Shown piece after piece: positions 1-16,794 of a DNA stretch of 16,794 bases. A program made the position numbers and the translations under genes. Under the pieces are notes generated by a model. It did no database searches. It saw only the letters and a program-made list of their open reading frames with translations, and was not told the DNA's origin. Each line of letters starts with the position of its first letter. The first letter of the stretch is position 1. This DNA comes from a virus (taxonomy: Duplodnaviria > Heunggongvirae > Uroviricota > Caudoviricetes): the IMG/VR virus record IMGVR_UViG_2547132127_000011; one strand, 5' to 3'.

Positions 1-1230
1 ATGAGCAGAGCACTTAACAAACTGAGCGATACACAGCTGAGGAAAATCAACGGCACACCCGCCCAAAAAACAGCCTTTCTTAATGACGGTGGAAACCTGA
101 GCGTCAGGCATTCAACCAGTGGCCTTTTAACCTGGTATTTCACTTACAGGGCCGGAACGGGAAGGGGGGCACCACCGGAACGCATTAAGCTGGGAAATTA
201 TCCTGATCTGAGCCTGAAATCAGCCAGGGAAAAAGCCGCCCAGTGTCGCGCATGGCTGGCAGAGGGGAAAAATCCACGTCATGAGCTTAATTACACCGTA
301 CAGGAAGCGTTAAAGCCGGTAACGGTTGGCAATGCGCTCACCTACTGGCTTGAGTCGTACGCAAAGGAAAACCGCGTGGATTATGCCGCCCTGAAAAAGC
401 GCCTTAATAATCACGTAATACAGCACATTGGTGCTATGCCGCTGGATAAATGCGAGCTACGGCACTGGCTGGCCTGTTTTGACCAGGTGGCAAAGCGAAC
501 GCCTGTTACTGCCGGATTCTTGCTACAGACGTGCAAACAGGCGCTTAAGTTCTGCCGGAGGCGGCGCTATGCAATCAGCAACGTTCTTGATGATATGAGT
601 GTGGCGGACGTTGGGAAAAAACCGGATATAAGCGAGCGTGTCTTAAGCACCAAAGAACTGGGCGAATTATTGCAGGCACTGGACAAAAAAATATTCTCCC
701 CCTACTACATCGCGTTAATCCGCCTCCTGATTGTGTTCGGATGCCGGACGGTAGAACTGAGGTTATCGGAGATCAGCGAGTGGGATTTTACCGAAATGCT
801 CTGGACCGTGCCGAAAGAACACAGCAAAACGAAGGTGGCAATATTCCGGCCCATACCGGAAGCAATACTGCCGTTCGTCACGCAGCTGGTGGAGCAGAAC
901 AGGCACACGGGCTTATTGCTGGGGGAAGTGAAACAGGAAACAAGCGTGTCGCAGTACGGCAGATTAGCGCACAGGAGGCTAAATCACCCTCACTGGTCAC
1001 TACATGACATCCGGCGCACCTTTACAACGATGCTGAACGATTTAGGCGTGGATCCTCACGTCGTGGAGCAGCTTACAGGCCACCAGATGCCAGGAATGCA
1101 GCGAGTTTATAATCATTCCCGTTATCTGGATGCTAAACGCAATGCGCTGGATATGTGGACGGAGCGGTTAGGGATACTGGCGGGAACACATGAAAACGTA
1201 ACCACGCTACCAGTAGCCAGAAGAAAATAA
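1..1230 (+). CDS. int: Tyrosine recombinase / integrase, P4-like
   Basis: 409-aa ORF with C-terminal catalytic region (HDIRRTFTT...LTGHQ...VYNHSRY) typical of the phage integrase family; N-terminal region resembles P4-type integrases. ORF starts at window position 1, so the true start and the left attachment site lie at or beyond the window edge. Confidence 0.88.
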   Translation: MSRALNKLSDTQLRKINGTPAQKTAFLNDGGNLSVRHSTSGLLTWYFTYRAGTGRGAPPERIKLGNYPDLSLKSAREKAAQCRAWLAEGKNPRHELNYTVQEALKPVTVGNALTYWLESYAKENRVDYAALKKRLNNHVIQHIGAMPLDKCELRHWLACFDQVAKRTPVTAGFLLQTCKQALKFCRRRRYAISNVLDDMSVADVGKKPDISERVLSTKELGELLQALDKKIFSPYYIALIRLLIVFGCRTVELRLSEISEWDFTEMLWTVPKEHSKTKVAIFRPIPEAILPFVTQLVEQNRHTGLLLGEVKQETSVSQYGRLAHRRLNHPHWSLHDIRRTFTTMLNDLGVDPHVVEQLTGHQMPGMQRVYNHSRYLDAKRNALDMWTERLGILAGTHENVTTLPVARRK

Positions 1231-1285
1231 TTTTTTTCGTGTTTTTTCAGTATGCGCATACTGGATATGCGAACAGATACAACGT

Positions 1286-1325
1286 GCAACAATGAGCAAC
1301 AATGCGGAACAACTACGAACAAGAG
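1286..1325. promoter_or_regulatory. Four tandem 10-bp units each with AACAA core (GCAACAATGA GCAACAATGC GGAACAACTA CGAACAAGAG); candidate protein-binding array
   Basis: Read directly: AACAA at 1288, 1298, 1308 and 1318, exactly one helical turn apart. Its reverse complement (TTGTTCGTAG TTGTTCCGCA ...) closely matches the array at 6982..7010. Confidence 0.4.
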
Positions 1326-1604: not shown

Positions 1605-1793
1605 GTGTTAAGCACTGATCGGTTTATACGTGAAAAAGAATGCGAAAAGCTAACAGGCCTTAGCCGCTCATGCCGCTACCGCCTGGAAAAGGCCGGACAA
1701 TTCCCATCACGTCGTAAACTTGGCGGTCGTTCCGTTGGCTGGTCTTTATCCGAGGTTCTGGCCTGGAAGGATAGCTGCAAGGCAGTTCATTAA
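1605..1793 (+). CDS. alpA: AlpA-family transcriptional regulator (prophage CP4-57 regulatory protein family)
   Basis: 62-aa ORF, GTG start preceded by AGGGGG; motif LTGLSRS..YRL...G.FP....LGGRSVGW..SEV..W is the AlpA helix-turn-helix signature; sits immediately downstream of int as in P4-like elements and PICIs. Confidence 0.8.
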   Translation: MLSTDRFIREKECEKLTGLSRSCRYRLEKAGQFPSRRKLGGRSVGWSLSEVLAWKDSCKAVH

Positions 1794-5515: not shown

Positions 5516-5530
5516 TTTTTTGTAATTGCT

Positions 5531-5756
5531 GTCTACCCTGTCTACCTGAGTAAAGAAAAATACATTTAATTCAGTGCATTAAGTTAGGTAGATAGCCTTT
5601 TTTTACTGTCTACCCACTATCTACCCTCTCTACCTGATTTTACCTGAATCAGACAGGGAGGTAGACACGGGGTAGATAGTGGATAAAAGCACTCTACCCC
5701 GCTGAAAGCAGCGCCATTACTGGCATGAGGGCCACTAAGGTAGATAAGGTAGACAA
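5531..5756. repeat. Iteron cluster: at least 11 copies of GGTAGAYA / TRTCTACC in both orientations; candidate replication origin
   Basis: Read directly: GTCTACC at 5531, 5608; TCTACC at 5541, 5620, 5629, 5693; GGTAGA at 5587, 5660, 5671, 5739, 5748. Lies immediately downstream of the primase/helicase gene, analogous to P4 ori/crr iterons bound by alpha protein. Confidence 0.6.
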
Positions 5757-5803
5757 GGGGAGGCACAACTCAAAACTTTTTAAACGAGGGGGTAAAAATA
5801 AAT

Positions 5804-6555: not shown

Positions 6556-6578
6556 GAATATCAGAACCACACCACGCA

Positions 6579-6601
6579 GCCGGAGCAATCCGGCTTTTTT
6601 T
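6579..6601 (+). terminator. Intrinsic terminator GCCGGA-GCAA-TCCGGC + T7 (copy 1)
   Basis: Perfect 6-bp stem, tetraloop, run of 7 T; read directly. Confidence 0.65.
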
Positions 6602-6696
6602 GCGTCATTTGAAACGGTATGGAGCACTACTGGCTTTTCGTCACGGCCCGGCATAGTTACTATCTGAAACAAACAGACACAACAGAGGAAAACGCA

Positions 6697-6921
6697 ATGC
6701 CGATGAAATTTGATGAGATACTTAAACAGCGTGATAAATACCATGCTGACAACATGGAGACGATGAATATCACTGATTACCGCGCATTTCTGGAAACGGG
6801 GGCGCTGATTGAAAAGGATCATCATGGTTTTGTTCGTTGCGCGCTATCCGGTGAAATGCTGGCAGTAAATCCTGAACAGACAGATGCATTGATAGAATTT
6901 CTGAAAGGGATCAGAGACTGA
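6697..6921 (+). CDS. Hypothetical protein (74 aa)
   Basis: Internal ATG of track ORF 6619..6921 with GAGGA 7 nt upstream; sits between two copies of the same terminator hairpin. Confidence 0.5.
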   Translation: MPMKFDEILKQRDKYHADNMETMNITDYRAFLETGALIEKDHHGFVRCALSGEMLAVNPEQTDALIEFLKGIRD

Positions 6922-6941
6922 GCACCCATACAGCACATACA

Positions 6942-6962
6942 GCCGGAGCAATCCGGCTTTTT
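6942..6962 (+). terminator. Intrinsic terminator GCCGGA-GCAA-TCCGGC + T5 (copy 2, same 23-bp unit as 6579..6601)
   Basis: Identical stem-loop to copy 1 followed by TTTTTGTTATTTTTT. Confidence 0.65.
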
Positions 6963-6981
6963 GTTATTTTTTGTAAATTAT

Positions 6982-7010
6982 TTGTTCGTGGTTGTTCCAC
7001 GTTGTTCACT
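6982..7010. promoter_or_regulatory. Three 10-bp-phased TTGTTC units (TTGTTCGTGG TTGTTCCACG TTGTTCACTG) about 215 bp upstream of the capsid start
   Basis: Read directly; 15-mer TTGTTCCACGTTGTT (6992..7006) is repeated exactly at 15201..15215; array is the reverse complement of the AACAA array at 1286..1325. Confidence 0.4.
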
Positions 7011-7224
7011 GAGCGGATCGGCATATTTTACCCGAACTGAATCATGATTATTCTCGCCCGTGGTGCCAGGACGCTGGGGCCACTTTCCCGCCTGTTAATG
7101 TGCTCGCCAATATTCATTACCAGGCGGGAAAACGATCGGTGCGATTACTGATTTCCTTATGAAAAACGGTTGAGTGTTTGCCGCGTCCTGGAGTTCCTTA
7201 CTTAACCCCAGGACTTTTTTTATG

Positions 7225-7233
7225 CAGAGAATA
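7225..7233. repeat. IS1 target-site duplication, left copy (CAGAGAATA)
   Basis: Identical 9-mer at 8002..8010 immediately flanking the other IS1 end. Confidence 0.9.
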
Positions 7234-7248
7234 GGTAATGACTCCAAC

Positions 7249-15333: not shown

Positions 15334-16794
15334 TTATTCATCTTTCGGCGCAGAATGCTGGCGACCAAAAATCACCTCCATCCGCGCACCGCCCAGCATG
15401 CTCTCTCCGGCGACGATTTTACCCTCATATTGCTCGGTGATTTCGCGGGCTACCGCCAACCCTACACCTTGCCCAGGGCGTAAAGTATCAACCCGTTGAC
15501 CACGGTCGAAAATGACCTCTCGCTTGCTTAATGGAATACCGGGGCCATCATCCTCGACCACAATATAGAGATGCTCGTCGGTTTGCCTTGCAGAAATTTC
15601 GACAAACTCGAGGCAATATTTACAGGCATTATCCAGCACGTTGCCCATCACCTCGACAAAATCGTTCTGCTCACCGACAAAGCTGATCTCTGGCGAAATA
15701 TCGAGAGAGATATTGACCCCTTTGCGTTGATACACTTTGTTCAGCGCTGAGGTGAGATTGTCCAGCAGTGGGGCGACCGGATGCAGCTCGCGGCTGAGCA
15801 ATGTCCCGCCGCGCATACTGGCACGATGCAGGTAGTAGCCAATTTGCTGTGAAATGCGGCTGATTTGCTCCAGCATTACCGGCTCAGCATCACTGACGCT
15901 CATCTTTTCACTACGCAGAGAACGCAGCGTACTTTGCAGCACCGCCAGTGGCGTTTTCAGACTATGGGTCAGGTCGGTGAGCGTCGTACGGTATTTGTCG
16001 TAACGTTCGCGTTCACTTTTTAACAATCGGTTCAGGTTTCGTACCAGACTGGTCAGTTCTCGCGTTGTGGCTGGATTGAGCAATTCGCGGTTATGTTCTT
16101 CCAGTTCGCGGACTTCTTTTGCCAGGGCTTCGATGGGGCGTAAACTCCACCAGGCGGCGACCCACAGCAGCGGGATCACTAACAGCAGATTGGCTGAGAG
16201 CACATAGATAAACCAGCTCCAGACCATATAGGAACTTTTTAGCTCCACCGGAATGGTATCCACCACCACAATGGTTAATTTTGGCATCCGCGATGTTGCC
16301 GGGTAGACGTTTACCGCCACCGAGTGGGTCATCTCCGCGTCGTCATCATCTTCCCGCACTTCCTGCAACTGTTGCTGTATCGAATGATCTCCACTCAGCA
16401 AGAGGCTGGTATCGTTAACATCCGCTTCAATTTCATGAAAACCATTCGATTTCAGCCAGTCAGGCTGGATCATTTTCATCAGCCAGGGCACGTCACGTTG
16501 CGCCCATAAAAGCTGCCCGTTCTCATCATAAATTAGCGTCATGGTGGGGCTTTGCTTGTCGATATTTTCGGGTAACTCGACATGCAACTTATTGTTTTCC
16601 CACTGCGCAAGGGTATAGAACAGATTGCTCTCGCCACGTAACAGCCGAAACGTAGTTTTATCGAAACTGACGCTATAACCGATCAGCGCGACCATTCCGT
16701 AGGCAAGCGAAAGCACCAGTACTACCGCTGCCGTTGCCAACAGAAAACGTACCCGCAGCGAGAGCGGGAAAAAAAGACGCAGTAATTTTTTCAT
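15334..16794 (-). CDS. phoQ: Sensor histidine kinase PhoQ (PhoP/PhoQ two-component system)
   Basis: 486-aa ORF whose translation ([63 protein letters not shown]...EDDDDAE...[17 protein letters not shown]...) I recognise as E. coli PhoQ, with periplasmic acidic patch, H-box and ATP-binding motifs; complete gene, start codon at the window end. Confidence 0.97.

What the first reader, a model, noticed from the sequence alone, without database searches (positions are those of the whole stretch)
6992..7006. Exact 15-bp direct repeat at 6992..7006 and 15201..15215 bracketing the entire head-packaging module
TTGTTCCACGTTGTT occurs identically at both sites, far beyond chance in 16.8 kb. The copies lie upstream of the capsid gene and about 120 bp from phoQ, so they flank capsid through terL plus the 93-aa gene. 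Possible explanations: shared operator sites; a recombination scar where a head module joined a P4-like int-alpA-primase backbone; or a substrate for deletion that would leave a roughly 7 kb capsid-less satellite.
Basis: seen in the sequence. Interest (0 to 1): 0.65.

Follow-up and report, generated by a model that had tools for sequence, protein, structure and literature searches.

The report
Phased TTGTT protein-binding arrays of a satellite
The repeated 15-mer is real, but it is two copies of a four-site family of helically phased TTGTT arrays, most likely the docking sites through which the island's small AlpA protein couples excision from the chromosome with switching on the capsid genes; it is not a recombination scar or a deletion substrate.

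Summary
The exact 15-mer sits at both stated places. It is TTGTT-N5-TTGTT and forms part of three arrays of TTGTT pentamers at a strict 10-bp phase in the window: 1278-1322 (inverted), 6982-7006 and 15191-15215. A fourth lies just upstream of int, outside the window.

The element is a decayed EcCIEDL933/CP-933C-type capsid-forming PICI between roxA and phoQ. IS1 sits in capsid codons 2-4, and the capsid gene also has a nonsense codon.

All intact HK97-capsid-type relatives examined keep the same four arrays:
- Both att arms have one, next to P4-style 12-bp tandem Int arm repeats (GGTGTAGTnnnn x2).
- The int-alpA spacer has one.
- The capsid operon has one, about 20 nt upstream of a conserved sigma70-like promoter.

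Pentamers and phase are conserved while the spacers drift.

Array C also exists in islands that lack the head module. The swapped head module ends about 1 kb before array C. No E. coli genome (0 of 5,426) carries the B x C deletion junction.

The best explanation is head-to-tail binding sites for the 62-aa excisionase-like wHTH protein AlpA, acting as recombination directionality factor and activator. This is inferred; binding was not shown. It is a known kind of system (Cox, Vis, TorI, RdfS), with sites that I did not find described in the searched literature.

The parts
6982..7006 (+). Array B: three TTGTT pentamers (6982, 6992, 7002) at 10-bp phase. It contains the reported 15-mer 6992-7006. 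Extended similarity to array C covers 6972-7006.
   Evidence: A perfect or near-perfect array is present in 33 of 35 loci with an HK97-type capsid, 220-241 nt upstream of the capsid ATG, even where the capsid protein is only 63-74% identical. The flanks are fully diverged in the L006 family but the array is kept.
7027..7054 (+). Predicted capsid-operon promoter: -35 TTTACC (7027-7032), 16-nt spacer, -10 TATTCT (7049-7054), TSS near 7061. This places the pentamers near -57, -67 and -77.
   Evidence: The layout array, 18-20 nt, TTTAC[C/A/T], 16 nt, TAT..T recurs in three diverged families (window, L006 type, L089), read from the sequences. This is a prediction; the TSS is not mapped.
7061..7221 (+). 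Structured 5' leader of the capsid operon. It has a long hairpin at 7084-7131 and a terminator-like hairpin at 7185-7214 followed by U7 and then the ATG. The Shine-Dalgarno sequence lies in the 3' stem.
   Evidence: Fold: -64.6 kcal/mol, z = -4.9, 0 of 200 shuffles as stable. No Rfam family matches. A hairpin abutting the ATG is also seen in L089.
7222..9156 (+). Major capsid gene, inactivated. The ATG is at 7222. IS1 is inserted at 7234-8001 with target duplication 7225-7233 / 8002-8010. There is an in-frame TGA at 8824-8826.
   Evidence: Pfam Phage_capsid is split over two ORFs and DDE_Tnp_IS1 is present. Sequence comparison with the intact L001. Coordinates. S. flexneri L011 is 99.8% identical and lacks the IS1.
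15191..15215 (+). Array C in the attR arm: TTGTG, TTGTT, TTGTT at 10-bp phase. It contains the second 15-mer, 15201-15215.
   Evidence: It is conserved in every related island, including those with no head module (L004, L007, L010) and those at other chromosomal sites (L006, L008, L009).
15234..15257 (+). Tandem pair of 12-bp repeats, GGTGTAGTTAAT and GGTGTAGTCAAT. These are the probable Int arm-type sites of the attR arm, 18 nt downstream of array C.
   Evidence: The same pair follows the attL-arm array just upstream of int. The P4 record annotates 12-bp tandem 'attP arm sequence repeats' on both arms in the same layout.
15299..15335 (+). Core-proximal part of attR. It holds an IHF-consensus site (15299-15311), a fifth arm-like repeat GATGTAGT (15311-15318), the core-type site TGGTAAAA (15318-15325), and the overlap region GGACATA starting at 15326 and running into the phoQ stop.
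   Evidence: Genomes without the island match only from window 15326 onward. Comparison of attL, attR and the empty site. attP reconstruction with the inverted core repeats TGRTAAAA / TTTTATCA.
1278..1322 (-). Array A: five pentamers (TTGTT x4 plus TTGTA) at 10-bp phase, inverted relative to B and C. It lies 48 nt after the int stop codon and about 190 nt upstream of the predicted alpA promoter.
   Evidence: It has 3-7 units (mostly 5-7) in relatives, and one variant has gained an extra 10-bp unit. In an unbiased alignment of six diverged spacers, 20 of 25 pentamer columns are invariant against 2 of 20 spacer columns.
1605..1793 (+). alpA: a 62-aa winged-helix protein and the proposed reader of the arrays.
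   Evidence: Pfam PF05930, E = 5e-18. PHROG 'excisionase and transcriptional regulator'. Model pLDDT 86.8, with best PDB matches GIsul2 excisionase (TM 0.83-0.90), RdfS, Pukovnik Xis, TorI and BldC.
1..1230 (+). int: a P4-type tyrosine integrase with an arm-DNA-binding domain.
   Evidence: Pfam Arm-DNA-bind_3 and Phage_integrase.
6940..6962 (+). Intrinsic terminator CAGCCGGAGCAATCCGGCTTTTT, 20 nt left of array B. It is the recurrent joint at which late modules are exchanged. A second exact copy lies at 6577-6599.

Best explanation
The 15-mer is the consensus two-unit core (TTGTT-CCACG-TTGTT) of a family of arrays of TTGTT pentamers spaced one helical turn apart. Each island of this family that carries an HK97-type capsid module has four such arrays; EcCICFT073-type islands with other late modules (L004, L007, L010) lack the capsid one.

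I propose that they are cooperative head-to-tail binding sites for the island's own 62-aa winged-helix protein AlpA. AlpA would act both as recombination directionality factor and as transcription activator.

Proposed sequence of events:
1. A helper phage raises alpA expression. This is shown experimentally for the sister island EcCICFT073, which the cf-PICI authors describe as having an alpA identical to EcCIEDL933's.
2. AlpA fills the arrays in the attL arm (outside the window) and the attR arm (array C, 15191-15215). Each sits immediately upstream of a tandem pair of Int arm-type sites. Binding there would bend the DNA and help Int build the excisive complex (inferred).
3. AlpA fills array B (6982-7006), centred near -57 to -77 of a weak sigma70-type promoter, and turns on the capsid/packaging operon (inferred).
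4. AlpA binds the long inverted array A (1278-1322) behind int and upstream of alpA. This may relate to its reported positive autoregulation (weakest step).

In this particular window the circuit is a relic, because the capsid gene is broken by IS1 and by a stop codon.
For: Existence and non-randomness:
- The window has 3 arrays against 0.067 expected.

Conserved architecture:
- The same four positions recur in the intact HK97-capsid-type islands at three different chromosomal sites; EcCICFT073-type islands keep the two att-arm arrays and array A.
- Array B is present in 33 of 35 capsid-bearing loci at a fixed distance.

Purifying selection on pentamers and phase, not on spacers:
- 20 of 25 pentamer columns are invariant against 2 of 20 spacer columns in an unbiased alignment.
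- The flanks of array B are fully diverged in the L006 family.
- One variant has gained an extra 10-bp unit.

The att-arm context matches known RDF sites:
- The arrays abut 12-bp tandem repeats laid out like P4's annotated Int arm repeats.
- TorI binds 5-bp cores in blocks of three, about 10 bp apart, in an attL that overlaps Pint (PMC2951348).
- RdfS binds about 40 bp directly upstream of an Int arm site and also regulates promoters (PMC11963761).
- The three 10-bp repeats at P4's PLL region show an RDF-type array at a satellite promoter. Calling them Cox boxes rests on my own knowledge.

AlpA is the right kind of protein:
- It matches PF05930.
- Its predicted fold best matches excisionases and the filament-forming wHTH proteins BldC and RacA.

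Published genetics fit:
- AlpA activates its own promoter, and its overexpression causes Int-dependent excision and replication (PMC6092414).
- An alpA mutation abolishes EcCIEDL933 induction.

Weak covariation:
- Islands with a different AlpA recognition helix (L085, L089) have altered array units (TTRYTCG and YGTTYR).
- The arm repeat is unchanged in L085 but changed in L089, so array type does not track the arm repeat.
Against: - No binding data exist, so assigning AlpA rather than Int or another factor is inference.
- In EcCICFT073, AlpA did not change Pint activity, although an array lies upstream of int. This is compatible with a purely recombinational role there, but it is not predicted by a simple operator model.
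- Array A is about 190 nt upstream of the predicted alpA promoter. A bidirectional terminator (1420-1442) lies between them, and the array is in the opposite orientation. Its link to autoregulation is therefore unclear.
- EcCICFT073-type islands encode a nearly identical AlpA (at most one residue different in L004) but lack any array at their late operon. AlpA control of late genes is thus module-specific.
- RDF sites in both att arms are less usual than sites in one arm.
- The covariation sample is only three clades.
- Promoter positions are predictions.
Confidence: 0.6

Rival explanations
1. The TTGTT arrays are arm-type binding sites of the P4-type integrase (N-terminal arm-binding domain). 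The copies outside att let Int autoregulate or regulate island genes.
For: Two of the four arrays lie in the att arms. Int has an Arm-DNA-bind_3 domain. Integrases can autoregulate through arm sites (PMC2951348).
Against: - A better candidate for the arm sites exists. GGTGTAGTnnnn tandem pairs plus a fifth core-proximal copy are found only in the att arms and are laid out like P4's annotated 12-bp arm repeats.
- Arrays A and B lie 1.3 kb and 7 kb from att.
- Continuous 10-bp phasing of 3-7 units is typical of wHTH filaments, not of arm sites.
- In L085 the arm repeat is unchanged while the array unit differs.
Confidence: 0.12
2. The arrays are read by some other factor, or act mainly as phased intrinsically bent DNA that assists intasome assembly and promoter activity. 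Candidates are a helper-phage excisionase or activator (as P2 Cox acts on P4's PLL repeats) or a host nucleoid protein.
For: - alpA is induced by an unidentified helper-phage function.
- Excisionase cross-talk between a PICI and its helper has been shown (PMC11773190).
- P4 carries three 10-bp repeats at PLL.
- Phased T/A-rich pentamers can curve DNA (general knowledge).
Against: - The arrays are strictly associated with islands that encode this AlpA type.
- The invariant G within TTGTT argues for base-specific reading rather than curvature alone.
- The array unit shifts with the AlpA clade.
- The helpers reported for EcCICFT073 (lambda, phi80) and EcCIMP1 (Kapi1) are diverse phages, whereas the arrays are invariant.
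Confidence: 0.15
3. One reading: the two 15-mers are a scar of the recombination that joined a head module to a P4-like backbone, or a substrate for deletion that yields a capsid-less island of about 7 kb.
For: The copies are direct repeats that physically flank capsid-terL-93aa. Module exchange does occur next to array B.
Against: - Array C is present, in identical sequence context, in islands that never had the head module (L004, L007, L010).
- The exchanged module ends at the terL stop, about 1 kb left of array C.
- The left joint is the 23-nt terminator, not the 15-mer.
- 0 of 5,426 E. coli genomes have the predicted deletion junction.
- 15 bp is short for RecA-dependent recombination (general knowledge).
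Confidence: 0.03
4. A chance repeat with no function.
For: An exact 15-mer pair alone arises in about 13% of shuffled windows, and other exact 16-mers occur in the window.
Against: The internal 10-bp periodicity, the extra copies, the conservation across diverged islands and the fixed positions all argue against chance.
Confidence: 0.01

Closest known systems
TorI / IntS of prophage KplE1 (and HK620)
   Same: A small wHTH RDF binds 5-bp cores arranged in blocks with about 10-bp spacing inside attL. attL overlaps the promoter of an int gene transcribed away from the att site. The RDF doubles as a transcription regulator (PMC2951348).
   Different: The TorI cores are GTTCG-type, not TTGTT. TorI sites are described in attL only and repress int. 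Here arrays lie in both att arms and at two non-att sites, and the related AlpA did not affect Pint. TorI is only a distant structural match.
P2 Cox acting on P2 attP/Pe-Pc and on satellite P4's PLL; P4 Vis (ORF88)
   Same: These are multifunctional excisionase-regulators that read tandem direct repeats one helical turn apart, at an att site and at promoters of a satellite. P4 has 12-bp tandem Int arm repeats on both arms and three 10-bp repeats at PLL. Vis is the P4 homologue of AlpA (PMC6092414).
   Different: The repeat sequences differ (TTAAAG-type boxes; that these are Cox boxes is from my own knowledge). PICIs and P4 are otherwise unrelated in gene content.
RdfS of ICEMlSymR7A, lambda Xis, and BldC (filament-forming wHTH proteins)
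   Same: They oligomerise head-to-tail with one protomer per DNA turn. RdfS binds about 40 bp directly upstream of an Int arm-type site and also regulates promoters (PMC11963761). RdfS and BldC are among the structural matches of the AlpA model.
   Different: RdfS and BldC rely largely on indirect readout with weak consensus, whereas here a sharp TTGT(T) core is conserved. They belong to different element types (ICE, Streptomyces development).
EcCIEDL933 / CP-933C / OI-51 / Sp7 (prototype capsid-forming PICI) and EcCICFT073
   Same: They share the chromosomal site (roxA-phoQ), the gene order, and a near-identical int (99.8% protein identity) and alpA (one residue different) (PMC3378721; bioRxiv 10.1101/2022.09.08.507074). 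AlpA is the genetically defined master activator.
   Different: The window's copy is defective (IS1 plus a nonsense codon in the capsid gene). In the papers I could search, no AlpA binding sites or capsid-operon promoter are described.
Pseudomonas aeruginosa AlpA antiterminator and its ABE
   Same: It shares the name, a bipartite promoter-embedded element, and a terminator just upstream of the first target gene (PMC7969949). The capsid leader here also ends in a terminator-like hairpin.
   Different: It is not homologous. The Pseudomonas protein is a larger 21Q-like protein with DNA contacts at residues 128-142 (PMC9371919). This AlpA is a 62-aa wHTH. The analogy cannot be transferred.

Membership tests
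RDF (Xis/Vis/TorI/Cox/RdfS-type) binding-site arrays | Tandem direct repeats with about one helical turn between units | tested here: met
   3-7 TTGTT-type units at exactly 10-bp spacing in every array.
RDF (Xis/Vis/TorI/Cox/RdfS-type) binding-site arrays | Located in an att arm next to integrase arm-type sites | tested here: met
   Array C lies 18 nt upstream, and the attL array 8 nt upstream, of GGTGTAGTnnnn tandem pairs. The attP reconstruction shows core inverted repeats and an IHF consensus site. The layout matches P4's annotated arm repeats.
RDF (Xis/Vis/TorI/Cox/RdfS-type) binding-site arrays | A cognate small wHTH excisionase-type protein is encoded by the element | tested here: met
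   AlpA matches PF05930 and the PHROG 'excisionase and transcriptional regulator'. The model's best matches are excisionases 8C3T, RdfS, Pukovnik Xis and TorI.
RDF (Xis/Vis/TorI/Cox/RdfS-type) binding-site arrays | The RDF binds the repeats, and the repeats are required for excision | not testable with these tools
   Only genetics on relatives is available. AlpA overexpression gives Int-dependent excision (PMC6092414). There are no footprints.
Integrase arm-type sites (P4-type heterobivalent integrase) | Confined to the att arms, as short repeats in the P4 pattern (12-bp tandem pairs) | tested here: not met
   TTGTT arrays also occur 1.3 kb and 7 kb from att (arrays A and B). The P4 pattern is met instead by the GGTGTAGT pairs.
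Activator-dependent sigma70 promoter (class I-type) | Activator sites centred upstream of a weak -35/-10 at helical-face-compatible positions, with a mapped TSS | tested here: inconclusive
   A conserved -35/-10 lies 18-20 nt downstream of array B in three diverged families. The TSS and the dependence on AlpA are not testable here.
Capsid-forming PICI (EcCIEDL933 family) | int-alpA-replication module plus capsid, protease, portal, connector, HNH, terS and terL, with no tail genes, at a PICI-specific att site | tested here: met
   Pfam annotation. Same site and synteny as EDL933.
Capsid-forming PICI (EcCIEDL933 family) | Intact capsid gene (a functional satellite) | tested here: not met
   IS1 in codons 2-4 and an in-frame TGA at 8824-8826.
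Pseudomonas AlpA / phage Q-type antiterminator with promoter-embedded binding element | Homologous Q-like protein | tested here: not met
   This AlpA is a 62-aa wHTH. The Pseudomonas AlpA is 21Q-like, with an HTH at residues 128-142 (PMC9371919).
Direct repeats as module scar or deletion substrate | Structural variants with breakpoints at the repeats | tested here: not met
   0 of 5,426 genomes carry the B x C junction. The module boundaries lie at the terminator 6940-6962 and at the terL end, not at the 15-mers.
Replication-origin iterons | Same motif clustered at the ori next to the replication gene | tested here: not met
   The ori region 5523-5760 carries a different iteron, TGTCTACC/GGTAGACA, in at least 10 copies.

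The most novel reading that the evidence does not exclude
A single 62-aa protein reads one 10-bp-phased code (TTGTT) at four places. It thereby hard-wires excision (both att arms), its own expression and capsid production of a capsid-forming satellite into one switch.

The long inverted array A upstream of alpA might additionally be the entry point at which helper-phage excisionase-type proteins, which are structurally similar wHTH proteins, trigger the island. That would make the array the missing link for the still unidentified helper signal that induces Gram-negative PICIs.
Probability: 0.12. Interest if true: 0.7.

Novelty: new member of a known kind. Interest (0 to 1): 0.4.

Why it matters
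AlpA is the genetically defined master switch of Gram-negative PICIs, including the capsid-forming family. In the literature I could search, its DNA targets, and how it couples excision with expression of the satellite's own capsid genes, are not described.

A defined site gives directly testable predictions: EMSA or footprints, pentamer or phase mutants, and reporter fusions in EcCIEDL933. The site consists of TTGT(T) units every 10 bp at four fixed positions, with a predicted promoter about 20 nt downstream at the capsid operon.

It also offers a sequence signature for annotating att arms and AlpA-controlled promoters in these islands.

The comparison further shows that cf-type and EcCICFT073-type islands differ in how their late operons are wired. 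Only the HK97-type head module carries the array.

For this particular window the element is a decayed copy, so the sites are probably relics.

Tried and rejected
1. Antiterminator analogy with P. aeruginosa AlpA. Rejected, because that protein is a non-homologous 21Q-like protein.

2. Species-representative genome scan with AlpA. It gave only 5 loci: one Shigella, and four too distant to inform.

3. Scan of all viral contigs for a perfect 4-unit array, as a specificity test. It was uninformative. More than 120 hits were mostly simple tandem repeats in AT-rich or giant-virus contigs, or origin iterons inside replisome-organizer genes of unrelated phages. The scan was truncated and my chance estimate was too low.

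4. CP4-57 (K-12 AlpA/IntA) as a test of generality. Its AlpA is too distant and no comparable arrays were seen.

5. The per-position information content of the units is circular, because the units were selected by TTGTT score. I replaced it with the unbiased alignment.

6. Rfam scan of the window. No family was found.

7. The idea that ORF 6619-6921 is RgdR. It has no RGD motif at the expected place and was not pursued.

8. Promoters downstream of arrays A, C and the attL array by the same spacing rule as array B. None was found by eye.

9. The paper behind PDB 8C3T was not found in the library.

Full report
**Observation**

The 15-mer TTGTTCCACGTTGTT is present exactly at 6992-7006 and 15201-15215 on the + strand.

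On its own this is not remarkable. 12.7% of 300 Markov shuffles of the window contain an exact direct repeat of 15 nt or more, and the window holds unrelated exact 16-mers.

What is remarkable is its internal structure. It reads TTGTT-N5-TTGTT and sits inside arrays of TTGTT-like pentamers spaced exactly 10 bp apart. The window has three such arrays:
- Array A, 1278-1322, on the - strand: TTGTT x4 plus TTGTA.
- Array B, 6982-7006: three units.
- Array C, 15191-15215: TTGTG, TTGTT, TTGTT.

Random sequence of the same composition gives 0.067 such arrays on average. B and C are also 77% similar over 35 nt.

**What the element is**

- The window encodes a P4-type integrase (1-1230) and AlpA (1605-1793).
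- It then encodes a DUF4222 protein, a D5-type primase-helicase, and an HK97-type head/packaging module: capsid, protease, portal, connector, HNH, terS, terL.
- It abuts phoQ.
- The same island sits between roxA and phoQ in 406 of 5,426 complete E. coli genomes, counted by its right end. One of them is EDL933, where it is CP-933C/OI-51, the prototype capsid-forming PICI EcCIEDL933.
- The window is 99.8% identical to a Shigella flexneri locus, apart from an IS1.
- This copy is defective. IS1 (7234-8001, target duplication CAGAGAATA) is inserted in capsid codons 2-4, the true start being ATG 7222. There is also an in-frame TGA at 8824-8826.

**The fourth array and the att site**

Genomes without the island match only from window 15326 onward.

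Comparing attL, attR and an empty site gives this core: inverted core-type sites TGRTAAAA / TTTTATCA around a 7-bp overlap GGACATA that runs into the phoQ stop.

In relatives and in the Shigella locus, the roughly 100 nt upstream of int (outside the window) carry a fourth array of 4-5 units. After 8 nt comes GGTGTAGTTAAT-GGTGTAGTTAAT, and then the int ATG. The right end of the island has the same composite: array C, 18 nt, then GGTGTAGTTAAT-GGTGTAGTCAAT.

In the reconstructed attP everything is in one orientation:
- Array C lies at -135 to -111.
- Arm-type pairs lie at -92/-80 and +135/+147.
- A fifth arm-like copy abuts the core.
- An IHF consensus lies at -27.
- The attL array lies at +92 to +126.

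The P4 genome record annotates its Int arm repeats as 12-bp tandem pairs on both arms in int orientation. That is the layout of the GGTGTAGT pairs. I therefore read GGTGTAGT as the Int arm-type site and the TTGTT arrays as sites for a different protein.

**Comparative evidence**

Position and distribution:
- Every intact HK97-capsid-type island examined has the same four arrays. These sit at roxA/phoQ (L001, L003, L005), abgR/smrA (L006, L008) and yifB (L009).
- Islands with the same backbone but other late modules (EcCICFT073-like: L004, L007, L010) keep the two att-arm arrays and array A. They have a different late-operon upstream region with no array.
- Across 35 loci with an HK97-type capsid N-terminus, 33 have array B, 220-241 nt upstream of the ATG. 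This holds even where the capsid protein is only 63-74% identical.

Sequence constraint:
- In the L006 family the flanks of array B are unalignable but the array is kept.
- In an alignment of six diverged int-alpA spacers made without reference to the motif, 20 of 25 pentamer columns are invariant against 2 of 20 spacer columns.
- One variant has gained one extra 10-bp unit.

These are the signatures of a phased protein-binding array under selection.

**The capsid promoter**

Downstream of array B, three diverged families share the layout array, 18-20 nt, TTTAC[C/A/T], 16 nt, TAT..T. In the window this is -35 at 7027-7032 and -10 at 7049-7054, which puts the pentamers near -57, -67 and -77.

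The roughly 160-nt leader is strongly structured (z = -4.9). It ends in a terminator-like hairpin that contains the Shine-Dalgarno sequence, just before the ATG. It matches no Rfam family.

**Which protein reads the arrays**

AlpA is a 62-aa PF05930 protein. Its model (pLDDT 86.8) best matches excisionases: GIsul2 Xis at TM 0.83-0.90, then RdfS, Pukovnik Xis and TorI. It also matches the filament-forming wHTH proteins BldC and RacA.

Known relatives bind just this kind of site:
- TorI binds 5-bp cores in blocks of three, about 10 bp apart, in an attL that overlaps Pint (PMC2951348).
- RdfS binds 40 bp immediately upstream of an Int arm site and also regulates promoters (PMC11963761).

The genetics on sister islands fit. 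AlpA activates its own promoter, and its overexpression triggers Int-dependent excision and replication (PMC6092414). alpA is required for EcCIEDL933 induction.

A small covariation test points the same way. L085 and L089 have a different AlpA recognition helix (CRTTR[F/Y]LMEK instead of SRSCRYRLEK), and both have altered array units (TTRYTCG and YGTTYR). The arm repeat is identical to the window's in L085 but changed in L089. This covers only three clades, so it is suggestive and no more.

I found no paper describing binding sites for this AlpA.

**Rivals**

- Int arm sites. This is unlikely, for the reasons above and because arrays A and B lie far from att.
- Replication iterons. This is excluded. 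The ori at 5523-5760 uses TGTCTACC/GGTAGACA.
- Helper-phage or host factor, or curvature alone. This cannot be excluded. It is less consistent with the invariant G in the pentamer and with the association of the arrays with this AlpA type.
- P. aeruginosa AlpA antitermination. That model does not transfer, because the protein is a non-homologous Q-like protein.

Comparing EDL933 (cf type) with an EcCICFT073-type island at the same site, the exchanged late module runs from about 20 nt left of array B to the terL stop. The 93-aa gene and a 516-bp block containing array C and attR are shared, the latter at 100% identity.

So B is the module's own promoter element and C belongs to the backbone's attR arm. 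They do not bracket the module.

The recurrent left joint is the 23-nt terminator at 6940-6962. It is duplicated in the window at 6577-6599, flanking a single ORF.

The predicted B x C deletion junction occurs in none of 5,426 complete E. coli genomes.

**Verdict**

The repeat is real and functional-looking, but as part of a four-site regulon.

- Well supported: the arrays exist, are conserved and are under selection, and two of them are att-arm elements.

This is a known kind of system (a multifunctional RDF reading phased direct repeats) in an element where I did not find the sites described. Interest is moderate.

Noticed in passing
window 7234-8001 (target duplication 7225-7233 / 8002-8010); 8824-8826: IS1 is inserted in codons 2-4 of the major capsid gene, and an in-frame TGA lies further down. 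This copy of the cf-PICI cannot make its own capsid. The 99.8%-identical S. flexneri locus L011 lacks the IS1.
   Followed up: yes
window 6577-6599 and 6940-6962: An exact 23-nt intrinsic terminator (CAGCCGGAGCAATCCGGCTTTTT) is duplicated, flanking the single ORF 6619-6921 (phrog_1957). Most relatives have one copy, 41 nt left of array B. It coincides with the mosaic breakpoints where late modules and upstream genes are exchanged. This is the longest exact direct repeat in the window and the real module joint.
   Followed up: partly
window 5523-5760: The probable replication origin lies just downstream of the primase-helicase gene. It has at least 10 copies of the iteron TGTCTACC/GGTAGACA in both orientations, in a lower-GC stretch. 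A similar GGTAGACAC iteron is seen in the distant island L085 (13800-14100).
   Followed up: partly
window 7061-7221: The capsid-operon leader is strongly structured (z = -4.9). It has a 17-bp-arm hairpin (7084-7131) and a terminator-like hairpin plus U7 (7185-7214) that sequesters the Shine-Dalgarno sequence right before the ATG. No Rfam match. A hairpin abutting the ATG is also present in the diverged cf-PICI L089. This may be attenuation or translational control.
   Followed up: partly
window 14787-14821 (within the non-coding gap 14540-15190): A second kind of phased array: GTGAC x4 at a 10-bp period (TTGTC/GTGTC/TTGTC/CCGTC on the - strand). It lies in the gap between the 93-aa gene and array C. 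EDL933 annotates a leftward 82-aa hypothetical gene in this gap (L003 17537-17785), with no PHROG match. Function unknown; a packaging (cos/terS) site or another operator is possible.
   Followed up: no
window 1248-1263, 1420-1442, 1537-1576: The int-alpA spacer has three further features:
- A perfect 16-bp palindrome, CAGTATGCGCATACTG, lies next to array A. It is present in the L001/L003-type spacers but not in L006, L007 or L009.
- A bidirectional terminator hairpin lies between array A and the predicted alpA promoter (1515-1543).
- Four ACAC-type units at 10-bp phase lie between that promoter's -10 and the alpA start.
   Followed up: no
L004 10440-10520; L007 20800-20880; L010 21040-21100: EcCICFT073-type islands with other late modules share a different conserved late-operon upstream block (CATTTCATAATTTGCAA...ATTGCA...TGCAAT) and no TTGTT array. 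Their late genes therefore appear to be wired differently from those of cf-PICIs, although AlpA is nearly identical.
   Followed up: partly
L089 2380-2420: In the diverged cf-PICI L089 (AlpA 72% identical over the aligned 58 residues), an extra 302-aa ORF lies between int and alpA. The spacer before alpA carries two copies of the palindrome-containing repeat TAGTGATATCACT instead of a TTGTT array. This suggests a different control of alpA there.
   Followed up: no
L098, L102, L122, L130 (viral contigs): Look-alike TTTGTTCC-N3 arrays of 4-5 units occur inside replisome-organizer-like genes of unrelated phage contigs. They are probably origin iterons, so the bare pattern TTGTT-N5 x4 is not specific to AlpA islands.
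   Followed up: partly
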